This document shows, piece after piece, positions 2-48,927 of a DNA stretch of 64,000 nucleotides. How positions within the stretch are numbered: position 1 is the first letter of the stretch; each line of letters begins with the position of its first letter. The stretch comes from Octopus vulgaris (Eukaryota), in the NCBI GenBank assembly GCA_951406725.2, contig OX597821.1:76136001-76200000 (forward strand), read 5' to 3'. The notes below the pieces were generated by a model. That model had not been told where the DNA came from and searched no databases. It saw nothing but the letters and a program-made list of their open reading frames with translations. Both the position numbers and the translations under genes were made by a program.

Positions 2-1186
2 TAATCCAGGTTTTGAACGGCAAATCTGAGATTTATACATACTATTTGACAATATATTGTTTGAATTTCTTAAATAAAACTTATCTATTTTGCAAAATTT
101 ATACGATTGTTCATTCCCATAGTAAGATTTCTGCGCGCTGGTTTGTCCTCGGTCATGGTCCACTCTTTGAACGTACACCACATTGATGTCTTTAGACTCA
201 TTTGGTAACTCGATTACTTCGCTTTCTGTTGAAGGCTTGTTCACAAAAACATTGCTGCTTTTTTTCATAAGGGACTCTTTAATAATGCTTGCCATGCTGA
301 TTACTTCATTTTGACGATCAGAATCAGGCAATTGTTTAAATCTTTTCGGAAAAAGCACTGATAAAAGTTGGCCAAAGGGACGCATGTATCCTTGCCAGCG
401 GATTTCGGTTAGGTTTCTTCTCCTGAAGAGATCTCTAAAACTTGCGGATTCTTTATCTTGCCCAAGTATATACATAATAATGGTATCTAATATTAGTGGA
501 ATTACCGACGGTTCTGATATATCTTCAATGAGTTTTTGAAGTACATCATATGCTAATATACTCTGATCATAAGTCATTAACTGACAGCATTCTCGTAATT
601 TTCCTCGGTCGAATCTGTTCAGTCGTGGAATATTTTTTCTGTCAAATAACCAAGAATAATCAACTTTAGTCCGACGCTTAAATTTGAAATTATTCTTGCT
701 ATTCCTGCTAACGCATTCTTTAGAATTTTCCCAATTAGCACAGCCCGATTCTTGTATATTATCCAGCTGGTTATATTCTATTTGTGTTTTTGCGGGGAAT
801 TTGTCGGCAGAAATGATTTCTTTCTGGAACGTTTCGTTTTCACAAGCCAATTCGTTCTTATTACAACTGGAATGCTTTCTCCTTTCTCTCACATTTGTGG
901 CTCGAACACTGCGTGCATCACACAGATTTTTAGTTTTGTAATAAACAGCAGAATCATTAGTATTCAAGTTATCGCAATAGCTGTAACTGTCAGAGCTGTG
1001 TTCGCTATTTTCATTAGACTCAATTTCATAGCGATGGCTGGCAGTTTCAGTTTTATTTGATAATTCCTCCATTTTCTCTGTGACGAGAAGTATGAACGCG
1101 TTCGCTGCATTGTAATCTTTATCAAATGACCTTTTATAATGCTTTGTATTTCGCTTGGTAAAAAACTTCGTCATGGATTGAAGCAT
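2..1186 (-). CDS. RD3 (retinal degeneration 3)-like protein, long coding exon that continues off the left edge of the window
   Basis: Manual translation gives 395 uninterrupted codons: MLQSMTKFFTKRNTKHYKRSFDKDYNAANAFILLVTEKMEEL...KRRTKVDYSWLFDRKNIPRLNRFDRGKLRECCQLMTYDQSILAYDVLQKLIEDISEPSVIPLILDTIIMYILGQ... VDYSWL (647-664) and the following helical block resemble vertebrate RD3 as I recall it (TGVDYSWL...ERLQLEDVC...FRQLL...LFRSVLQEVL). Upstream are a 3' splice site (TTTGTTTTGTTTAG, exon starts 1210) and a CTAAC branch point near 1236-1240. The 24 nt before the ATG are in frame and open. Confidence 0.8.
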   Translation of the reverse strand, partial: MLQSMTKFFTKRNTKHYKRSFDKDYNAANAFILLVTEKMEELSNKTETASHRYEIESNENSEHSSDSYSYCDNLNTNDSAVYYKTKNLCDARSVRATNVRERRKHSSCNKNELACENETFQKEIISADKFPAKTQIEYNQLDNIQESGCANWENSKECVSRNSKNNFKFKRRTKVDYSWLFDRKNIPRLNRFDRGKLRECCQLMTYDQSILAYDVLQKLIEDISEPSVIPLILDTIIMYILGQDKESASFRDLFRRRNLTEIRWQGYMRPFGQLLSVLFPKRFKQLPDSDRQNEVISMASIIKESLMKKSSNVFVNKPSTESEVIELPNESKDINVVYVQRVDHDRGQTSAQKSYYGNEQSYKFCKIDKFYLRNSNNILSNSMYKSQICRSKPGL

Positions 1187-1664
1187 GTTGCAATCGCCTT
1201 CAAACTTAACCTAAACAAAACAAATGTAAAAATCTGTTAGCAATGAAACAATCTAAACATGAAGAAAACATATACACAGAATGCTATGATAAAGGCTATG
1301 GCTTCAAATGAAATACTGTGTTTCATTTATAAAGTTCTAATTTCAAGTTATTCTGAGATTGGCCTTTCAGTTCATCTCTCCTGAGAAGTTAAAATACAAG
1401 CTGGTGTATGATAAATGCTGTAGACGATCCGATTCATTTCATACATCGTGAAAACATATGAAAGGCTGAGCACGGAAAGCAAGTAGGAAGAACTGTATTA
1501 CAGTTTTTAATTGTTTACTTATTCTTGGTTCAAATCTTACCGAAGCTGGTAAATAGTAGAAATTACTATATTGATTAGATATATTTTTCTATTAAAAACA
1601 AAATGCTTAAAGCGAAATAAATAGGTCTTTCTTTTGTTTCATTAAGTAGCTTCAGTTAGTCTAC

Positions 1665-1880
1665 ATTACTCCGTAAGAAGTATAAGGCTGGTTTTCCGGT
1701 TTCTCTGGATGGGGCTTCGGTCCATCGCAGGGTTATTATTTACAGCTGAGTAGTCTGGAGCAGAGTGAAATGAAGTGTTTTGCTCAAGAACACAATGCAC
1801 TTCCTGGTCTGGGAATCGTACTCACGATCTAGCAATCGCGAGTGCAACACCTTGACCACTGCTCCACAAGCCTTCACCTA
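1665..1880 (-). mobile_element. tRNA-derived SINE, family C, degenerate
   Basis: Shares GCTGAGTGGACTGGAGCA...TTGCTCAAGAACACAA...GGGAATCG with copies at about 52500-52655 and 58830-58970. Confidence 0.6.
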
Positions 1881-2722
1881 AGTAGCTTTATTGAAGGACA
1901 TTTGGAATTTTTTTTAGCAGTTTTAATGAGGAAATGCTCCAATACTAAAATGGTCCAAGTATGCACTTTAAAAAATATACTGTGGTTTTTAGCCATTTTT
2001 CCCTATGGACCAATCTGATCTCTATTTTTACTTTACTGGACCATCATGGCCATTCGATGTTTTAAAAAAGCCTATTGGTTTTTTTTTTAAATAATGAGAT
2101 ATAATGAGGAATTGTATTAGAAAATAGTTTAAATATTTCGTGAATTGAATAAATATAACCAATCTCTTGCATATAAATTTTAACGACAAAATTTTATATG
2201 GAACTCTGTTGAGAACCACTGATATAGACAATGATACTGTCCTCCACATACAGGAGAACTTCCAGATGACCACCAATGGCAAGCCATCTTTGCCAACAAC
2301 CATTCAACGTGTTATAGGTTGCATACTGTTGTTGTTGTTGTTGTTGTTGTCATTCCTCTTCTTGTAGTTAAAGTCAGCTCGAAAAAGTATTTTTCGTATG
2401 GAATTTGTTGTTAGTGCATGGACTATTTTTCTAACACAATTTTATTTTACCAATTTTTTTTGTCATGAAAATACGTTTTAAAGGGCAAATTTATTTTATT
2501 TCATAGACTTTTACCAAAATAGCAATTAAAAATAACTCTTCCTTGTCGCTTTCTTCCACCACCACACAACTCCACTGCGGTAGAAGTAACCAAAAACGTA
2601 CTAGAAGCAGCAGTAACAAAACAGCAAAAAGAATAGGAGTGACGATGTGTGAGACAGAGAAGCAAGACAGCGGCAAGAAAATCGCCGTCCTCCCCGTGTG
2701 AGAGAGAAATTCATTACCACCA

Positions 2723-2913
2723 TTCTTTTCTACTCTAGGCGCAAAGCCCGAAATTTTGGGATTAGATCGAAACCAGTACGCAACTGGTACTAAATTTATT
2801 GACAGCGAAAGCATGAAAAGCAAAGTCGACCTCGGCGGAATTCGGACTCAGAACGTAAAGACAAAAGAAACACTGCTAAGCATTTCGCCCGGCGTGCTAA
2901 CGTTTCTGCCAGC
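2723..2913 (-). mobile_element. tRNA-derived SINE, family A
   Basis: Reverse complement of the GCTGGCAGAAACGTTAGCACGCCGGGCGAAATG...CCGCCGAGGTCGACTTTGC repeat seen many times in the window. Confidence 0.85.
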
Positions 2914-3511
2914 AAAAGCTTTTTTTTTTTTGGTATTTTCTGTAGTTTTTGTCTCCCTCCCTTTTCTCTTGTTTTATTTTATTTTACTTTTAGTTGGTGT
3001 AAATCGTGATTGATTTCGTTAAGAGTTAAGAGACCCATTCTTTTATTTTCCATCTTTTTCTCTATATCTCTGTTCCGTAATATTTGCTTGGGTGTTGACA
3101 CTTCTGTTTGGGTGGGTTTAAGAGAGTATCTATTTTCCTTTGTAACAACATCGGCCGCTTTATATCTCATTTCATTTCACTTGTTAAGGCTGAATTTGAA
3201 TCTGTTTCATATAAATTCACGATGGCGAAGTCTATATTTCTGTTCTTGCTATTTTAATGTTGAATCTATAATTGATAAGTTATTTCCTTGGTCCTTAGGA
3301 GGATCTGTGGCCCTTAATTTATAAATTATACTTAACTTTAGAATCTCGGAGTCATGCTTTTTACCTTTAGAATTTTCTCTTCTAATCCATGAAGTCCCAG
3401 AGTACTTAAATTTCTGAATATTACTTTTAAATTTTTACAGATTTTTGAATATAGGTTAAAATGAATAAAGTAATTATTAAAACTCCTTTATTTCAAGTAG
3501 AAATGGAAATA

Positions 3512-3612
3512 CTCTGTGTCCTATTTATAGGACACAGAGACAATGTGATATAACTTATTTAATGTTCTCATTTAATGTCCTATTTATAGGACAGTGAGAC
3601 TTAATGGGTTAA
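3512..3612. repeat. Palindromic MITE remnant with a piggyBac-like GGGTTAA end
   Basis: Hairpin CTCTGTGTCCTAT-TT-ATAGGACACAGAG at 3512-3539, a second TGTCCTATTTATAGGACA at about 3577-3593, and terminal AATGGGTTAA. Confidence 0.4.
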
Positions 3613-10689: not shown

Positions 10690-12000
10690 CGAATAAGATA
10701 AGTTGGACCTCAGAACTCACTGTAATCAATAACATAGTGGCCCACAATGTGTTTGCAGACCCAGTACTCATACCAACATTTGGGTTGCTTAATTAGACGC
10801 TTGATAAGATCCGAGCCATTGATGTGAAAACCCGAAAAATACTAACAAGCACACGTTATTTTCCACTTAAAAATACTGACGTAGACGGCCCATACCTAAA
10901 ACGAAAACAAGGCGGCATAGGCTTAACATCGATCCGAAATGCCTTTGAATATCGCATCATATCCCTTCGGTAATATCTTTTAACCACCAACTGTCGAAAT
11001 GCATCCCTTGACTACGTTTATATACACGAGGCTGATAACATCACAAGACTTGGAAGGTAGCTCCTTGAGCAACAGGCTTTGTCTGATAACCTAGAATACA
11101 TGCCCAAAGAAGTCGCACGACTCTACCACAACGTATCAGCAGATGAAAGGATGAGCCTATATGAGCAGAAGACTATGCATGTATATATTAGTAGAAAGCT
11201 CCGTGATGATAGTAACATCGATCATCAAAGGAGTTTATTATGGACCAATAGCCGGATTACTAACTCCCACTTTAAAGAGAATGCGTTTCCAATCCAGGAA
11301 TAGGAAATATCAACCAAGTACCTGATGTACAAAAGGGATAGAGATGCAGGTAAAGCCGTAAAATGTGACAACATATGCAGACTTTGTGGAGTTCACACTG
11401 AAGATATCACACACAACATAGGCAGTTATCCGAAAATGTCATCACGGTATTATCTACAAATGAGACATGATGTTGAAACTAGGACACTCTATAATGAAAT
11501 CCATCGGAAGGATAATCCCGAGGACAAAGAAATAAGAACCCACAATATGGTAGAAACCATTGCCACTCATAATAAAAAGGAGTACTGGTGGAATGTGCCA
11601 GTGAAGACCTCAATAAGATGCGTTCACAACAGACCTGATATAATAATTTGGGATAGAGAAGAGAAACTGTGCACAGTTGTGGTAATTAGCTGCCCAGCGG
11701 ATGTTAACATAAAGCTGAAGATCAGAGAAAAAGGAAATACCTATGCTGAACTATTAAGAAATCTGCAGTTTTCAATCCACATTACAAGTTCAGGTTTATA
11801 CCTGTAATTATTGAGGACCTGTAATCGTAAGAAATTAGACATCTCAAAACCAGAAAGGAGAACGCTAATTCGAAGACTACAGATTCAATCAATGACTGGA
11901 ACTGTAAAAGTGTGTAAAAATTTTCCAGAAGTTTATCATTCAAGTATATAATAGCATGTCTAGATATGCAACTATATGCATGAGAATACATAAATAAAAC
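10690..12000 (+). mobile_element. 5'-truncated R4/Dong-like non-LTR retrotransposon, defective
   Basis: CRLC-x-E-xx-H zinc knuckle, RHD and NRPDIII motifs of a restriction-like endonuclease (11325-11807); an upstream KRKQGG.GL-type motif; multiple stops. Confidence 0.85.
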
Positions 12001-19166: not shown

Positions 19167-20007
19167 GTATTCACATATATGCATATTCATATACTACGCG
19201 CATACAGAGATACTCACACACTCACATACACATTAATATTTATTTATTACTCTATTCTTTTCAGTAGAGAGAGAGAGAGAGATGAAGAGAGAAAGAGAGA
19301 AAAAGAGCGTTTGTGTGTGTGCGTGCGTACGCTTCTGTGCGCGTATGTGTATGTGAGCATAATTTTTTCGCTCCTACTTTTCGAACATGCCCCAAATTCC
19401 TCTTCTTAGACACTTTTTTGAAAAGCATCAGCAATGTTTGATGCGGCAAATCAGATGCTCAGGCAATCGTGGCTGCACCCGATAATAATTATACATACTA
19501 TATGGACAAGCAAGTGAGGAAATTACGGATATGTCAATATTTCCTTGCTGCTAATGCACCTGATATTCCTGCAGCCATAACGATTGGCTTAGCGCTTGCT
19601 TTTAGTTCCAAAGAGTACAATTCTTGTCTTGCAGTGGACTTATAATTTAAGAGGGCTGAAGAGGATGACCAGCATTTCTCTCTCGTCAAAATGTTAACTA
19701 ATAAATAATCTCAGACATGTGGATTGACAAAGAATAGCGGCTTAGATAATATGATTCAATCGCAAACAAGGAATCACAAATAAAAGTGAAACCACAACTT
19801 TGATTGACTTATCCCACTCTATTATCAATAGGACAATGATTTTTAAGTTCTCATCGACGCAAACATCCTATTAAATCACTTCTACCAGAAAATGTTTCAC
19901 CGTAAAACAATGAATGACAGTTAAATAATGTTGAAAATATTTTCCCCAAACAAACAACTAAATTTAATGGAAAAATAGGTATCTGCCCTCATACGCAACA
20001 AGAACTC

Positions 20008-20066
<59 letters not shown>

Positions 20067-20067
<1 letters not shown>

Positions 20068-20360
20068 GGTATGCGATAAAGAAGAAAGAAAAGTCGATAG
20101 ATATGAGTTTAAGCAGTTGTGGTCGATTAAAAAGGTGGCAGGAGTACCAATAATTGTCGGAGCCCTGGGAACAGTGAGTAAAAACTTAGAGAAGTACATG
20201 GAACAAATAGGGGCTGCAATAAGGGTGGAGCACTTGCAGAAAATAGCACTGCTTGGAACCGCTCGAATTCTCCGGAAGGTGTTCGAAAAATAAAGTGTGA
20301 TACCTTAGTTCACTGGTAGTGAGCAGCTGATATCATAGAATATCTCCAGCGTTAGAAACT
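20067..20360 (+). mobile_element. 3' end of an R4/Dong-like LINE inserted in (AAT)n
   Basis: Translates KQLWSIKKVAGVPIIVGALGTVSKNLEKYMEQIGAAIRVEHLQKIALLGTARILRKVFEK*, with AAT tracts on both sides. Confidence 0.8.
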
Positions 20361-22431: not shown

Positions 22432-23201
22432 GTGTGGTCTGATCAATAAGTATCCGGAATGTTGCCATAGTAACGAAGCTAAATCATGCAGAGTGAAGCC
22501 GCTTCGGACGGATTGACTTTGAACGCTGATGTGCATACGCATTAAGTTTTAACGTACTAGCTCACTTCCGCTGTTGACAGCAGTGCTTGGAAGGAAAGTG
22601 TATAGCGTGTGATTGTCGCATTGACCATAACGGAGAAAGTTGAGCCGAGAACCTGCATCAAAGTTTGCCAAAAGTTTGGTGATACCTGCTCAGAGGCGTA
22701 CGTAAAGTATTCAAAAGGTTCTCATCATACTCGATACAATCAAGGAGATCTTGTGCAACTGAAACCCGAGTGTTTTTTGGTCAGCTGAAAACAGTTCTGG
22801 CACAAACTTGGCAGACACGCGTCTCATACCCAAATCTTCAGTGATAATTGACTGAACTGAACCGTAGCTAATCTACACATCCTCTGATAACTCACGATTT
22901 CCCCTCACAGCTGCACGGATATCTGCGATGTTTTTCTCACTTCTGCTGGTTGCAGGTCTCCCAGAACGTTCGTCCCAGAACGCTCGTCCCAGAACACTCG
23001 TCCCAGAACGGCCATCCTGGAAACGGCTGAACCACTCGTACACTAGTGTACGGCTCATGCACTCCTTACCATACATTTTCTGCAACTTTGCGTAGGCTGA
23101 TGAGCAGGTGTCGCCATGAAAACTTTTTCTGTCATGGTCAATGCGACGATCTCACGCTACACACTTTCCTTCCAAGCACTGCTTTAACAGCGGAAGTGAG
23201 C

Positions 23202-23203
<2 letters not shown>
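22432..23203. mobile_element. Non-autonomous mariner derivative with inverted 5' ends
   Basis: TIR-like GGTCTGATCAATAAGTATCCGG; 22557-22700 is inverted at 23085-23203; minus-strand HTH fragment QKMYGKECMSRTLVYEWFSRFQDGR. Confidence 0.7.
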
Positions 23204-23243
<40 letters not shown>

Positions 23244-23482
23244 AAGAAGAAGAAGAAGAAGAAGAAGAAGAAGAAGAAGAAGAAGAAGAAGAAGAAGAAG
23301 AAGAAGAAGAAGAAGAAAAACGGGGACTGGGAAGTTATTGACAGCAAATTAATAATCTTCACTTACAGCTGTTTCAGTTAATGCGCATTAAATATTGAAT
23401 TTATATTTATATGGCCTCAGTATAATATCTTCAGAAGAAAAAAAATTTACCTTTGGATGTTTTACATGTGTTTTTTTTTTTA

Positions 23483-24703
23483 TCAGGTCATCCCAAATTT
23501 CTATCCGAATTGTTATGTTTAATTGAAATTTAATCATCACCGTACTTTCCCTGATTATCTACGACTTCCTTCCATCTATTTATAAGCTTTTTAATCCCAT
23601 CAATGTAAAACTCTTTTGCTTTCAAAGTGAAGAACTCTGAACTATCAGTTTCGACCTCCTCCTGGCTTGCGAAAGTTATGTCCCCCAAATGATTCTGTAA
23701 ACTACGAAACAAATGGTAATCTGAAGGAGCAAGGTCGGGATAATAAGGTGGATGGGGAATTTTTCCCAACCAAGCGCTTCGATCTTCTGTGGTATGATCT
23801 TTGCAGTGTTGGATCACTCCTTTTCGATTCACTAAAGCAGGGCTTTTTTTCTTCAAAGCTTGGTTCAAACGCTCTAATTGCTGACAGTAGACTTGAGCAT
23901 TGATTGTTACATTAGGTGGTAACAATTCAAAGTGAATTACCCCTTTGCAATCCAATCAGATAGAGAGAAGAACCTTTTCCCATGAAATTCCCTTCTTTTG
24001 AGCTTTTTCCTTTTTACCAAGCCACTGTTTGCGACGTTTAACATTTCGATAGAAGATCCATTTTGCGTCACCAATCAAAAGCCTATCCAAAAAGGGTGAA
24101 ATGATTTCGAGAGAATGGAGAGAAGAGCAGATGTCAACTTGGGATTTGCAGTTGCTTTCGGACAATTCATGAGGCGCCCATTTTCCAAGTTTTGGAACCT
24201 TTCCAAGTTGTTAAAGATGACGATGAACAGTTGTATGGTTTGAACTAAGCTTTATTACCAATTCTTCAACTGATAATGCAGGATTTTCTTCAAGTAATGC
24301 CTCAAGAAGCTTATTATCAAACTCAACTGGACGTCCTGTTCGATCTTCATCTTCAAGGCTGAAATCTTCACTTCTGAATTTTACAAACCATCTTCTACAA
24401 GTTCTTTCATTCCAGCATTCTTTCCCATAAACTGAGTGTATGTTTCGAGTCGCTTCGGCTGCAGAGTTTCCTTTTTTGTACTCATAAAGCATTATGTGCC
24501 TTAAATTCTCTTTGGATACTTCCATGTTAGAAAGGGTTTTAATCAAAGAAATTTTAATTCTATTATTCTGTAAAATCATATTTAATTAGTTTAGATGTAC
24601 ACAAATGCATAAAAATAATTTTTAATTCCATTAGACATTCTAAAATAATATTAAATTTCATTTAAGAAAGGTAAAATGGGACAGAATTTATGGGATGACC
24701 TGA
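23483..24703 (-). mobile_element. Near full-length mariner transposon with a defective transposase
   Basis: TIRs TCAGGTCATCCCA.../...TGGGATGACCTGA with TA flanks. ORF pieces carry the HTH (MEVSKENLRHIMLYEYKKG), WAPHEL, GDAKW and HPPYYPDLAPSDYHLF motifs, with stops and a deletion around the second catalytic Asp. Confidence 0.93.
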
Positions 24704-29266: not shown

Positions 29267-29935
29267 ATACAGCCTTGGCCATAAGTATTAGGCCACCCCA
29301 ATATTTTGGGGTTCTGCTATCTCAATGTTAATGAAACTCGTGTACATGGTAGATTATGGTATATTTCACAATATACTTTAGCGTTAATATCTGGCTGACC
29401 TTCCTTTAGCATCAGTCAACGCTTTTATACGGTTAGGCATGGAATCAGCAAGTGTTTTGCAGGTGCTAGGCGCAAATTTACTCCGTTCTCCTCTCAACAT
29501 TTGATACAAATGCTCTTTATTTTCAATTGTTGTGTTCCTGATAGCTTCGCCAAGAGTTCCCCATAGGTGTTCGATCGGATTTAGATCGGGACTTTGAGCT
29601 GGCCAGTCCATGGGAACAATTTTGTCTCAAACCATTGACGTGTATTCTTTGCTGTATGACATAGAGCGTTGTCCTGTTGAAAGATAACACTGTTTTTCGA
29701 CACTCCTGAATATAATTTAACAATTGATGGCTCTTTAACATCTGATAACACAGAAACATATGTAGCTGAATTTATCCTTCCCTGACATAAAAGCATTTCT
29801 CCGATTCCTGTGGCAGACATGCAGGACGACACCATGATATAGCCACCCCTATGTTTTACGGTTGATACCAGACATTCAGCCTTAAATGCTTCCCCAACTC
29901 TGCGACGCATGAAAGTTGCACCAGATGTACTGAAA
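29267..29935 (-). mobile_element. Tc1-family transposon 3' half, frameshifted
   Basis: TVKHRGGYIMV, FQQDNA and WPAQSPDLNPIEHLW (DD34E) motifs; TA-CAGCCTTGGCCATAAGTATT terminal repeat at about 29268. Confidence 0.88.
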
Positions 29936-32900
29936 ATCTGAGTAAAAACATGAAAAATTATATTTGGTTTATGGTGATGATAATGATGATGATGATGATG
30001 ATGACGATGGTGGTGGTGGTGGTGGTGGGTGATAGTAGCAGTAATATTAGCAAAAACCAACAATAAAAATTATGATGAATGATTAGATGATATATCAGAC
30101 TTTTTGGAAGTTTCAATTAGAACTCCACCAGACGAACACATTTGACATTACAGGCACAAACCAACCGTCCATAAACTAACCCACTCCACCCCAATCTCTT
30201 TGACCACAAGGCACATTGTTTTGCCAAGTACGTATTCGTATTTTACCAGACCACTACAAAACGGGTGCACAGAGCAGTGGTTAAAGTGTAGGAAGATATG
30301 AGGCAGTCACTAACTCGTTGCCTCTCGATCTCCGATGTGGCGTGACTCAATTGTGACCTCTCCAGTATTTGAACTCAGAGCGCTGCGAAGATTGAACGAG
30401 AAAACCTAAAAGCATTCATTGACTGTTATCGTTATTGTTTTGTTCCCAGCAAATGTTTTTTTTTTTTTGCATTTTTAACCTATAATGTTCCATGCATTGA
30501 ATATACTGACAACCAGTCACCGAACAGTGGGCAGCCTTTGTTTCAATGCATGACTAATCATAGTCACACAACTGCTTGATGCATTCACAGGGCATTCAAG
30601 TAATTAGTACCATTATCTAGAACGCTACTGGATCAACCAAATATCCCAGCATAATAAACGCAAGAAAGAATCCAGCTGATCCTCCTCTGTTTATCCTCAG
30701 AAGCAATTGTATCACCTGCCTTAATATTAAACATACCAGCTGGTTGAGTCGGTTGCGTATTGGGTCAGATGATTGCTGTATCGAGTCGGTAGCGGTGATT
30801 ATAAGGGCAAAACCCAGGAAGACTTTGCTATTCCAATTCAACTCTAGAGCAGAAAATTTTCAGGAATGTGTTTGTGTGCAAACAAAAAACATATAGCTAA
30901 GTGCAGGCTAATATGCCTAATGTAGTGGAACCAAAGGTTGCTTTAATCTATTCAAATCTCAACAAAAGTGAGAAAATTCAGTAGTAGTAATGACAATTCT
31001 GACCAAGGAAGATAAGGGAGGGAACACTGAAATTGATTTAAAATTTAATAGAGTGTTGCTGTGAAAATGAGCCTGATATTTGATGATTATGGTGATAATT
31101 TCCGACATATTTCGGTCTTATTAGGCATCCTGAGCGAAATATATTCTAATGGTGAAAACGCTTTGCTAAATTCATGCTCAATCCTTTGTGAGAAACTCAG
31201 ACTCGAAATAAATACATCGAGGCTTTAACGACTCAACTAGTCTGCTGCTTTATACATACATACATACATACATACATACATACATACATACATACATACA
31301 TCCGTGCATGCATCTGAAGTAAAATGCAAAATTTTCCCGGTCCAGTTCCCCAACACCAAATCAAACAAAAAGAGAAAAATACACCAAGAAATAATGTTTA
31401 GTTATCGTTAGCTTCTCGAAGCTCAAGTCACGCGTCAAGAAAACGCTGTGTGTGAGCATGGGTCGGGAGATGAGACAGAAACCTCAGTGCAACGCGAGGC
31501 ATGCTTCAACGTCTCTTGGTTACTTTTTATGATGTAAAGACATCAAAAATGGCTATTGTGCGCGTATGTGAGTGTATAAATGTATATAGAACGAAAGTAC
31601 AGACATGATAGGCTGAAACAATATGCTAATTTTTTTTCTAATAAAATTATTTCCTTTTAGGATTTTTGTTATTAAATTACTCACAATTCTTTGGATGTAA
31701 ATCATCAGAGTATAGTGTCAATCAATGGAGAGGCGAAAGGAACAAGCGGTCATATTTGGTCATACATAATACTCAAACTAGATTGACATATAAAGAGGTG
31801 AGCAAAGATAGATAGATAGATAGAAAAAGAAGATGACTAAAAATTCATTTGAAACCTTTCAGCCGACCAACGAAAAATCGGAAAATTATGGCTGAAAGTG
31901 ATCTGGTAAGGTTTTATCGTAAAGCTGGCATTTAATTACCTATATTTCATAAGCTCCTTTTCCCCAACAAATTGATCGTAATTTAAGTTTTAATGTATAA
32001 AAGGAAAGTGTAAAATAGATAGTTTTAAATATCGCCACGAGCGCAACCTATAACCAGTCAAATGGTGATGCGTTATTGAATTTAATAATGCACTTGAGAT
32101 GAGATTATTGCTTAACGTAAAAAACCATCAAAAGTTCAACAAATTAACACGTATACACAGCAGTATACTGTTGAATAAAAGAGGAAAAGGAATAATTTAA
32201 TGGTTGGAAGGTGGGTGGAATGCTTAAAACAGTGTTAAAATATTAAGTTGCAGAAATTTCACTGATGCGTCAATAAAATTAAATGAAACTACATCGAAAA
32301 TTGCAGTAAGAGTGAATTTTTCTCCCAATAAGAACAAAATGGACAACAATAATAAAATATAATTGAAAAAGTTGTGCATTAAGTAATAAATAAAAACGCC
32401 TCTTTAAAATCGAGACAGCCACTAATGCTTCAAATCTATGAAAAATTTCACAAAAATCATTCAAGTTAGGCCGACATTATAAACAGCGACGATTAACGTT
32501 GAACATTTGGCAAACGTGAAAAGAAAAAAAAAATGAAAGAAAATCATTATTAGAACATAAAATTTAGTGTTCACTTTATATTCAAAAGAATTTTGCAGGT
32601 TTTAACATAACTTCTGCCTATTTGAACTGCTGCCGTTTTGTTATGATCTAACTCTAATATGCTCATCACTAATGCCTTTTCTTTAAAACATGGAATATAA
32701 ATATAAACTCACTTCGCTTGTATTTTACTTTGAAATCCATGTCGATTATGACAGGCTTCGAAATCTGCACTCCATCAATGGCAATATTATCTACATTCAT
32801 CTCATCTCTCCAAACAAATATACGTTTGAAGATCAGCATGTTATCGGAATTTTTTTTTCTACACTTGTATTTCGTTATGATTTTAAAAATTATTTCTTAA

Positions 32901-44869: not shown

Positions 44870-45244
44870 GATTGGTCCAGGCCATATCTAACTTAATAGC
44901 ACCACCTGATAGGATTATTTGAATTCTGTTTAAGTCAAGTTTTGTTTATGGTCCATTCAAGTAGTGAGCTTTTGTTGGGTGAGTTGTATCCAATTATGGG
45001 TGGCTTATCTGGTATTCCTTGAAGGAATCTATCCAGACTCCGTTTAAAGTTGATGGGATCCTGTTCCTCTTTGGTCTCTTTTGGGACAATGTTAAATAGG
45101 GCAGGGTCTGTTGAGGAAAAGAAATGATGTTGTAGTGTACATGTAGGCTGTGATCTTGAATTGGGCAGGTGACGTATGGCTCGTGGTACCAGTCTTGGAT
45201 GAACCTTGAAGCTAATGTTCAGGTCGTTTGGGCAAAGTTGGCGG

Positions 45245-45245
<1 letters not shown>
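44870..45245 (-). mobile_element. 3' end of a CR1/L2-group LINE
   Basis: [35 protein letters not shown] matches the P.LFN.LP...FK..LD.FL..IPD.P terminal motif. A related fragment lies at 48136-48410. Confidence 0.65.
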
Positions 45246-45322
<77 letters not shown>

Positions 45323-45353
45323 GTAGGTATGTATGTACGTATGTATATATACG

Positions 45354-45447
<94 letters not shown>

Positions 45448-45597
45448 ACTTATAAATAAGGGCAAACGAAAAAATTTCTAATGCCAAATATGCCGAAAAA
45501 TTGGACATATTGTCCATTTACCATATAATTTTTTCCCCAGTACGCACGCTACTCGAAAGAAATCCGACAGAAATTTCTAAAAAAAACCATTATTACC

Positions 45598-48135: not shown

Positions 48136-48404
48136 TTAGAGCCTTCTCTGGTATGTGGCATTTGATGAATAAGATGAACCAGGTTCATATGGGACTCTCG
48201 ATAGGAAAAGATCAAGTTTTGATCTGAAAACATCTACATCCACTTTGTATGTGTCCCTCAGGCTCTTTGAGAGAATATTACAAAGCTGTGGTTCTCTCGA
48301 AACCCAGGCTGTTGCAGTAACTGGTCCTGAAGCGCGATTGCATTGCTGGGATCTTTGGTACTCTACAGCAGCGACCCGTTCTGGCATTTGTACAGCCTTG
48401 GATG

Positions 48405-48410
<6 letters not shown>
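48136..48410 (-). mobile_element. CR1/L2-group LINE 3' fragment
   Basis: PQLCNILSKSLRDTYKVDVDVFRSKLDLFLSRVPYEP motif. Confidence 0.65.
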
Positions 48411-48460
<50 letters not shown>

Positions 48461-48927
48461 AAAGTAAACGCATAAATGAGAAATAAGGTGGGAAAAATAG
48501 TACTCGAATACCGAAGGTATTATTATTAAGAATGCAAAAATTTCACAAAAATATCACAAAAACTGCAACTCAGAGTTTCGCTCAAAAGGGAACGTGTAAC
48601 TCTTTGTAGCAATTTTTTGTGGTATATTTTTGAGGCCTTTGCAGGTTTAGTAATAATAAATCATATATATATATATATATATATAATTATATATATATAT
48701 ATATAAAATTATAAATTAGGGTATCTACGAGATACCACCATGCTGATAATAGCGGCCATGATCTGACTTTAAACCCACCTTAATTGTCCATATATCAACA
48801 CGGAAAGAAAACAAAGAGACAAGATGAAACTAGTAAAAAATTACTGGATAATTCTAGATCCTGGATTTCTGACTTTGCCTTTAGGAATGCTTTGCCTCGT
48901 CAGTATAATACACACAGAAGAGATACC

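What the first reader, a model, noticed from the sequence alone, without database searches (positions are those of the whole stretch)
2..1210. RD3-like protein with a ~130-aa insertion and long C-terminal extension, missed by the ORF track
Seen: 395 open codons on the minus strand behind a clean splice acceptor. An N-terminal helix (RSFDKDYNAANAFILLVTEKMEEL) and the TKVDYSWL...RGKLRECC...LQKLIE...LILDTIIMYILG block are separated by about 130 low-complexity S/N/E-rich residues, and more than 150 further residues follow. Known: vertebrate RD3 is a compact protein of about 195 aa that binds, inhibits and traffics retinal membrane guanylyl cyclases. Inference: this is a divergent, enlarged cephalopod RD3-family member that may regulate a receptor guanylyl cyclase in an animal whose main photoreceptors use Gq/PLC rather than cGMP signalling.
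Basis: partly seen in the sequence, partly recalled or inferred. Interest (0 to 1): 0.7.

Follow-up and report, generated by a model that had tools for sequence, protein, structure and literature searches.

The report
Enlarged, remodelled RD3 relative in octopus
This octopus gene encodes a 436-residue protein that is a distant relative of the human retinal protein RD3, with a long insert inside its predicted four-helix bundle and only one of RD3's two cyclase-binding patches kept, so it likely escorts and restrains a membrane guanylyl cyclase, in tissues not yet known.

Summary
The reading frame is real: 395 codons from the ATG at 1186 to the window edge, identical to an unnamed 436-aa database protein and conserved in O. 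bimaculoides, Argonauta and three unnamed records. RD3 ancestry is supported by weak signals that all agree. Pfam RD3 is the only hit of the core (E 0.007-0.06, below the curated cut-off). Three family profiles each hit only human RD3 (6DRF) among 177,635 PDB sequences (E 0.007-0.017). A full-length model ranks 6DRF first by Foldseek (E 1.4) and best among natural proteins by VIA (Z 6.3), pairing the N-terminal helix with RD3 helix 1 across the insert. RD3's Y60/W62/L63 loop is invariant in 6 of 6 sequences; the helix-3 pair R101/Q102 is not kept. One contig of a probable RNA run leaves the genome sequence at the 1210 acceptor. The insert is about 115 residues net and variable, not low-complexity. 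Cyclase binding, tissue and orthology are untested; nothing points to the eye, and RD3 relatives already act outside photoreceptors. Verdict: new divergent variant of a known family, modest interest.

The parts
1211..1240 (-). 3' splice site: CTAAC branch-like site, T-rich tract, TAG
   Evidence: sequence; filter 8 of 1523 sites at a threshold chosen afterwards; X1 contig stops matching at 1212 with 47 of 177 letters left over
1187..1210 (-). start of the exon, likely 5' UTR (24 nt, no ATG); the upstream exon was not located
   Evidence: database protein P0002 and all homologs begin at or near the Met of 1186
2..1186 (-). coding sequence, residues 1-395 of a 436-aa protein, no intron in this stretch; the last 41 residues lie beyond the window's left edge
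   Evidence: 100% identity to P0002
1055..1129 (-). conserved N-terminal helix (res 20-44), predicted equivalent of RD3 helix 1
   Evidence: 25/25, 25/25, 20/25, 8/25, 11/25 identity in the five homologs; pLDDT 65-75; VIA aligns model 20..243 to 6DRF 18..128
677..1054 (-). variable hydrophilic insert (res 45-170), predicted disordered; spacer 121-134 aa in four octopod-like sequences and 69 aa in the two remote homologs
   Evidence: pLDDT under 50 for 46-178
458..676 (-). RD3-like core (res 171-243): DYSWL loop and predicted helices 191-203, 206-220, 226-240 (RD3 helices 2-4)
   Evidence: Pfam PF14473 positions 47-128 of 129; 6DRF profile hits; model
2..457 (-). C-terminal extension (res 244-395, goes on to 436): predicted helices 270-309 after an RPF motif (octopods only), a V-Y-V motif at 337-339 invariant in all six sequences, and a basic end

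Best explanation
The gene encodes a divergent RD3 relative that is predicted to fold into RD3's four-helix bundle, with helix 1 docking back onto helices 2-4 across a looped-out, likely disordered insert, and that likely works as RD3 and RDL-1 do, by binding the cytoplasmic part of a membrane guanylyl cyclase, holding it inactive and helping it reach its site. Shown: open, conserved frame; homology signals to RD3; the invariant Y177/W179/L180 loop (RD3 Y60/W62/L63); hydrophobic residues in 6 of 6 sequences at the six core positions named for RD3. Predicted: the bundle and the disorder of the insert. Inferred: binding would use the YSWL loop plus a remodelled helix-3 face (T205, D207, Q208, S209, A212, Y213 invariant here) fitted to a cephalopod cyclase; the long basic tail would carry the sorting signal, as RD3's tail does; the insert would be a tolerated spacer. 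Homology about 0.92; cyclase regulation about 0.55.
For: Pfam RD3 is the only family listed for 6 of 8 queries (E 0.0068-0.063) and 2 of 4, covering profile positions 47-51 to 127-128 of 129 in five of the six. Profiles A3, A4, A5 each return only 6DRF_A 'Protein RD3' among 177,635 PDB sequences (E 0.0066, 0.017, 0.016). Full-length AF2 model: helices 191-203, 206-220, 226-240 begin 115-116 residues after RD3's 75, 90, 111 (PMC9493048). Foldseek rank 1 is 6DRF (E 1.4). VIA rank 2 of 48,161, best natural chain, Z 6.3, rmsd 3.0, 93 residues, model 20..243 on chain 18..128. The two RD3-like blocks are the most conserved parts and the spacer varies from 69 to 134 aa. Cluster-1 residues W62/L63 (PMC13400361) are kept in 6 of 6. 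RD3 and C. elegans RDL-1 both act on membrane cyclases.
Against: Every score is weak alone. Pfam gives 13.5-16.7 bits against a cut-off of 27. No RD3 hit for the window protein whole or for three other cuts (0 of 4), for P0002 and P0005 whole, or for P0006 and P0007. The four-octopod profile A2 did not list 6DRF. Model mean pLDDT is 40.6 and pTM 0.35; Z 6.3 is in the range common to helical bundles and a designed protein scored higher (Z 7.6). Profile alignments put the second half of RD3 helix 1 next to the DYSWL loop and do not show the N-terminal helix, whose match rests on the structural alignment. R101/Q102 are not kept in either register (D/K/E and V/I in the HMMER register; Q/K/L and K/H in the ungapped one), nor are H89, P90, C93, P95, R99. 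No expression, partner or localisation data.
Confidence: 0.55

Rival explanations
1. A duplicated, possibly retrocopied RD3 paralogue that has left cyclase regulation: a canonical RD3 elsewhere in the genome would do the old job, and this copy would use the bundle, the YSWL loop and its new helix-3 face to bind another partner (another kinase-homology-domain protein, or a nuclear partner through the basic tail).
For: Cluster 2 and the rest of the helix-3 surface are replaced by a different invariant set. The coding sequence has no intron through codon 395, whereas human RD3 has two coding exons split near residue 99 (PMC3538699, passages). A profile search of 1.84 billion representatives found only 3 proteins at E up to 0.001, none a canonical RD3, which fits a long branch. 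Basic RRRKR run at 411.
Against: Cluster 1 is invariant in 6 of 6. The known partners of both characterised family members are membrane cyclases. Whether a canonical octopus RD3 exists could not be tested (no genome held). The human intron may be a vertebrate gain.
Confidence: 0.32
2. No RD3 ancestry: a lineage-restricted helical protein that shares a short DYSWL word and a common bundle by chance.
For: All scores are below the usual thresholds. The core-only model found no RD3 match. The Atlas gave no usable hit.
Against: Forward (Pfam, 24,736 models) and reverse (three profiles against 177,635 sequences) searches and two structural searches each pick RD3 first or as best natural hit. The match spans about 80 residues with matching helix starts, and it appeared once remote homologs were added.
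Confidence: 0.07
3. An eye-specific regulator of cGMP synthesis in cephalopod photoreceptors, the first reader's implied setting (a special case of the best explanation).
For: RD3 is mainly retinal in mammals.
Against: No tissue evidence was obtained. RDL-1 is expressed in 11 classes of head sensory neurons in C. elegans and localises DAF-11 in chemosensory neurons, so an RD3 relative needs no photoreceptor role.
Confidence: 0.1
4. A decaying or untranslated reading frame.
For: The X1 contig across the acceptor has one extra A in a six-A run behind 1159, which would shift the frame near codon 9-10 (one contig, depth 2.7, may be an error).
Against: The frame is intact in six sequences at 25-85% identity, with conservation concentrated in the two RD3-like blocks. 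The O. bimaculoides protein carries four RefSeq accessions.
Confidence: 0.02

Closest known systems
Human RD3 (Pfam PF14473, PDB 6DRF, 195 aa)
   Same: DYSWL loop with Y60/W62/L63; helices 2-4 in register; hydrophobic residues at the positions of L29, L33, F100, V114, F118, L122; predicted four-helix bundle; a tail after the bundle
   Different: 436 aa; about 115 extra residues between helix 1 and the DYSWL loop; tail about 125 residues longer with extra predicted helices; H89/P90/C93/P95/R99/R101/Q102 surface not kept; RD3's trafficking sequence 158-170 not recognisable beyond an RPF motif; no intron in the coding stretch seen; below Pfam's cut-off
C. elegans RDL-1 (RD3 homolog)
   Same: invertebrate RD3 relative; precedent for a role outside photoreceptors, localising the cyclase DAF-11 in sensory neurons (PMC12541453, passages)
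O. bimaculoides LOC106880080 and Argonauta hians Ahia01_000653600
   Same: same gene family and architecture, 85% and 45% identity
   Different: named only 'uncharacterized' or 'hypothetical' by their sources; no RD3 label in the records shown

Membership tests
RD3 (PF14473) | score at or above Pfam's gathering cut-off (27 bits) | tested here: not met
   13.5-16.7 bits, E 0.0068-0.063 in 6 of 8 queries; no listing in 4 of 4, 2 of 4, P0006, P0007
RD3 (PF14473) | reciprocal profile similarity to RD3 | tested here: met
   6DRF is the only hit among 177,635 sequences for 3 of 4 profiles, E 0.0066-0.017; not listed for A2
RD3 (PF14473) | four-helix bundle, helix 1 packed on helices 2-4 | tested here: inconclusive
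   6DRF rank 1 in Foldseek (E 1.4) and Z 6.3, rmsd 3.0, 93 aligned in VIA from a low-confidence model; consistent, but not significant alone
RD3 (PF14473) | hydrophobic core L29, L33, F100, V114, F118, L122 | tested here: met
   hydrophobic in 6 of 6 sequences at all six positions; the helix-1 offset comes from the first aligned pair, and F100 has two possible registers, both hydrophobic
RD3 (PF14473) | cyclase-binding cluster 1 (W62, L63; Y60 as a member is recalled) | tested here: met
   Y177, W179, L180 invariant in 6 of 6; cluster residues from PMC13400361
RD3 (PF14473) | cyclase-binding cluster 2 (R101, Q102) and the helix-3 surface | tested here: not met
   no R at 101 and no Q at 102 in any of 6 sequences in either register
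RD3 (PF14473) | C-terminal trafficking sequence (human 158-170) | tested here: inconclusive
   an RPF motif at 269-271 in the four octopod-like sequences only, absent from P0006 and P0007; too short to call; signal from PMC13400361
RD3 (PF14473) | binds, inhibits and traffics a membrane guanylyl cyclase | not testable with these tools
   no cyclase sequence of this organism was at hand; needs an assay
RD3 orthologue (as against paralogue) | groups with molluscan RD3 and is the single copy | not testable with these tools
   no genome held; no canonical RD3 sequences were retrieved

The most novel reading that the evidence does not exclude
A cephalopod-lineage RD3 copy has kept one binding loop, rebuilt the helix-3 face and gained a large insert and tail, and now regulates a different class of partner, or a cyclase of a cephalopod-specific sense organ in a way the insert can switch; it would be a natural experiment showing that RD3's two binding clusters are separable and that the fold has uses beyond retinal cyclases.
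Probability: 0.2. Interest if true: 0.6.

Novelty: new variant of a known kind. Interest (0 to 1): 0.36.

Why it matters
It gives a family name and a testable function to a cephalopod gene that databases call uncharacterized. It shows that the RD3 bundle may tolerate a 50-115 residue insert after helix 1 and a replaced helix-3 surface while the YSWL loop stays fixed, which bears on where RD3 binds its cyclase (the site on the cyclase is unmapped according to PMC8329130 and PMC9493048). It opens no new pathway unless the partner proves to be something other than a membrane guanylyl cyclase.

Tried and rejected
Pfam scan of the window protein whole and in three cuts: no RD3; NucA/NucB (E 0.7-4.7), Symplekin, Urm1 and DUF7226 listings read as chance. 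Single-sequence PDB searches: DsrH E 1.9, nothing for P0006; A2 profile gave three unrelated bacterial chains at E 0.03-3.5, read as chance. ESM Atlas: no usable feature hit and no family over the bar. Search for shorter relatives of the core: 1 candidate, none at E up to 10. A model of residues 171-309 without helix 1 (pLDDT 58.6) gave no RD3 match in Foldseek or VIA; absence there excludes nothing. Docking of the helix (14-52) onto the core (168-250) by complex prediction: no answer. No listed sequencing run is on record as RNA; runs X2-X4 cover intron repeats heavily and cannot show expression; tissue is not given. No genome held, so no paralogue count. A core-only alignment of all homologs was not made, so the profile searches used whole proteins or the four-sequence stretch A2. 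No Rfam hit in the window. Of 83 other frames scanned (80 of 101 selected by complexity, plus 3 others), only transposase pieces passed Pfam cut-offs, so no neighbouring gene informs function. Earlier-findings look-ups were empty. Papers: 0 hits for the four accessions, 0 for 'protein RD3' + mollusc, none on cephalopod RD3 among 8 listed, 20 listed of 158, and 8 listed; the library lacks most subscription papers and supplements were not searched. PMC7397094 and PMC5776970, the primary papers on the two clusters and on RDL-1, were not held.

Full report
Observation. The minus-strand frame 2-1210 is open for 403 codons and runs off the window's left edge. The first in-frame ATG is at 1186, leaving 395 codons; base-shuffles gave at most 200 (2000 shuffles). 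It is identical to the first 395 residues of a 436-aa protein held by NCBI and UniRef (P0002), so the gene is annotated, though unnamed here. Upstream lies a branch-like CTAAC, a T-rich tract and TAG. The site passes a simple filter at pyrimidine fraction 0.70 (8 of 1523 YAG sites) but not at the 0.78 I first set. In run X1, whose RNA nature is only a guess, contigs cover pieces of the exon and show zero depth in the bins from 1601 to 3600, and one 177-nt contig matches 1084-1212 and then leaves the sequence for 47 letters. This fits a splice at 1210 to an exon ending in AG; the other exon was not among the rows shown. The same contig has one extra A in an A run behind 1159 at depth 2.7, possibly an error. 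Three further runs hold 96-100% of the words at only 62-69 million letters; their kind is not on record and I did not lay them.

Relatives. Four proteins were found among 1240 candidates: P0002, O. bimaculoides LOC106880080 (85%), an unnamed record P0004 (73%) and Argonauta hians (45%). A profile of these against 1.84 billion representatives gave 3 hits, one new: P0006, 362 aa, E 5e-15. Its core found P0007 (2 hits among 16 candidates). The organisms of P0006 and P0007 are not given; that they belong to another cephalopod lineage is my inference. In the six-way alignment identity to P0002 is concentrated in residues 20-44 and 171-243 (for P0006: 8/25 and 31/73, against 11/126 in the insert and 6/65 in the late tail). 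The spacer between the helix end and YSWLF is 134, 132, 126, 121, 69 and 69 residues.

Is it RD3? Forward: Pfam RD3 was absent for the window protein whole and for three cuts, but was the only family listed for 6 of 8 queries, including two window cuts (E 0.031, 0.063) and two whole homologs (E 0.034, 0.0068), mostly covering profile positions about 48 to 128 of 129. Scores are 13.5-16.7 bits against a cut-off of 27; P0005, P0006 and P0007 gave no RD3 listing. Reverse: the four-octopod profile A2 did not list RD3, but the three profiles that include remote homologs each returned human RD3 (6DRF) as the sole hit among 177,635 sequences (E 0.0066, 0.017, 0.016). Structure: the full-length AF2 model is poor overall (pLDDT 40.6, pTM 0.35) but has confident helices at 21-40, 191-203, 206-220, 226-240 and about 290-310, with 46-178 unfolded. 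Foldseek ranks 6DRF first (E 1.4). VIA ranks it second of 48,161 behind a designed protein, Z 6.3, rmsd 3.0 over 93 residues, model 20..243 on RD3 18..128, that is with the N-terminal helix on RD3 helix 1. 6DRF was released in February 2019, after the training cut-off that I recall for these AF2 weights (April 2018). A model lacking helix 1 found no RD3 match. No single result is significant by usual standards; their agreement is the evidence. I put homology at about 0.92.

Anatomy against RD3. RD3 numbering was taken from the chain printed (+17) and agrees with the helix limits and residues in PMC9493048 (passages and section 10). The offset is 2 at helix 1 (first aligned pair) and 117 at Y60/Y177, so the net insertion is about 115 residues here and about 50 in P0006/P0007; the tail is about 125 residues longer than that of the 195-aa human protein (length from PMC3538699, passages). 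The six core positions named for RD3 are hydrophobic in 6 of 6 sequences. With offset 2, T28, T34 and E39 are matched by A/T, T/S and E/Q/H, while P21, E23, G35 and R38 are not matched. RD3 binds its cyclase through two clusters, the loop between helices 1 and 2 and the face of helix 3 (PMC8329130, section 11), inactivated by W62A/L63R and R101A/Q102L (PMC13400361, passages). The loop residues Y177, W179, L180 are invariant. Helix 3 can be aligned in two registers (HMMER's, I97 on I210; or ungapped, where helix starts coincide). Neither keeps R101/Q102, H89, P90, C93, P95 or R99; instead T205, D207, Q208, S209, A212 and Y213 are invariant. RD3's tail carries a trafficking sequence at 158-170; only an RPF motif in the octopod sequences faintly recalls it. 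Human RD3 has two coding exons split near residue 99; this gene has no intron through codon 395.

Mechanism. Best reading (0.55): a cyclase escort and inhibitor like RD3 and C. elegans RDL-1, binding through the conserved loop and a remodelled helix-3 face, with the insert looped out and the tail used for sorting. This rests on family knowledge: RDL-1 localises DAF-11 in chemosensory neurons (PMC12541453, passages), and RD3 inhibits GC-A and GC-B at about 25 nM (PMC9812585, abstract). Main rival (0.32): a duplicated, perhaps retrocopied paralogue with a new partner, favoured by the lost cluster 2, the long branch and the intron-free coding stretch. Whether octopus keeps a canonical RD3 could not be tested. 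Chance resemblance 0.07; non-functional frame 0.02.

Context and literature. The rest of the window gave only transposase remnants and repeats. I found no paper on this gene or on cephalopod RD3 (listings only; open-licence library; supplements not searched and could hold expression tables). PMC12000573 and PMC10219005 were seen as passages and added nothing used here.

Verdict. A real, conserved gene and very likely a divergent RD3 relative. It fails Pfam's cut-off and the cluster-2 test, so it is not filed as RD3 proper. New variant of a known kind; interest 0.36, up to 0.6 if the partner proves new.

Noticed in passing
window 22876-24585 (-): Broken mariner/Mos1-type transposase: HTH_48 at 24214-24585 (E 1e-21), Transposase_1 at 23533-23955 (E 2e-12), and a second HTH_48 piece at 22876-23151.
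   Followed up: partly
window 29387-30069 (-): Tc1-like transposase remnant; DDE_3 hit at 29387-29626 (E 9e-7).
   Followed up: partly
window 11061-11807 (+), 19979-20293 (+), 44935-45477 (-), 48136-48553: Frames that look to me like ends of non-LTR retroelement proteins (judged by eye); no Pfam family passed its cut-off.
   Followed up: no
window 170-181 (-), residues 336-339 of the protein: A V-Y-V motif in the otherwise divergent tail is invariant in all six homologs; possibly a short docking motif; unexplained.
   Followed up: no
P0002 residues 411-436, beyond the window's left edge: Basic, helix-predicted C-terminus (RRRKR run, then SQAVTVRVIRD) strongly conserved in the four octopod-like sequences (18-24 of 26 identical); could be a nuclear or membrane-targeting signal.
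   Followed up: no
window 1159: One extra A in an A run in the X1 contig that crosses the acceptor (depth 2.7); error or allele not resolved.
   Followed up: no
O. bimaculoides LOC106880080 (P0003): Four RefSeq accessions share this one protein, which suggests transcript variants differing only in untranslated exons.
   Followed up: no
window 1211-64000: No other protein-coding host gene was detected in 63 kb upstream; the stretch is rich in simple repeats and high-copy short repeats. The gene's first exon or exons may lie here.
   Followed up: partly
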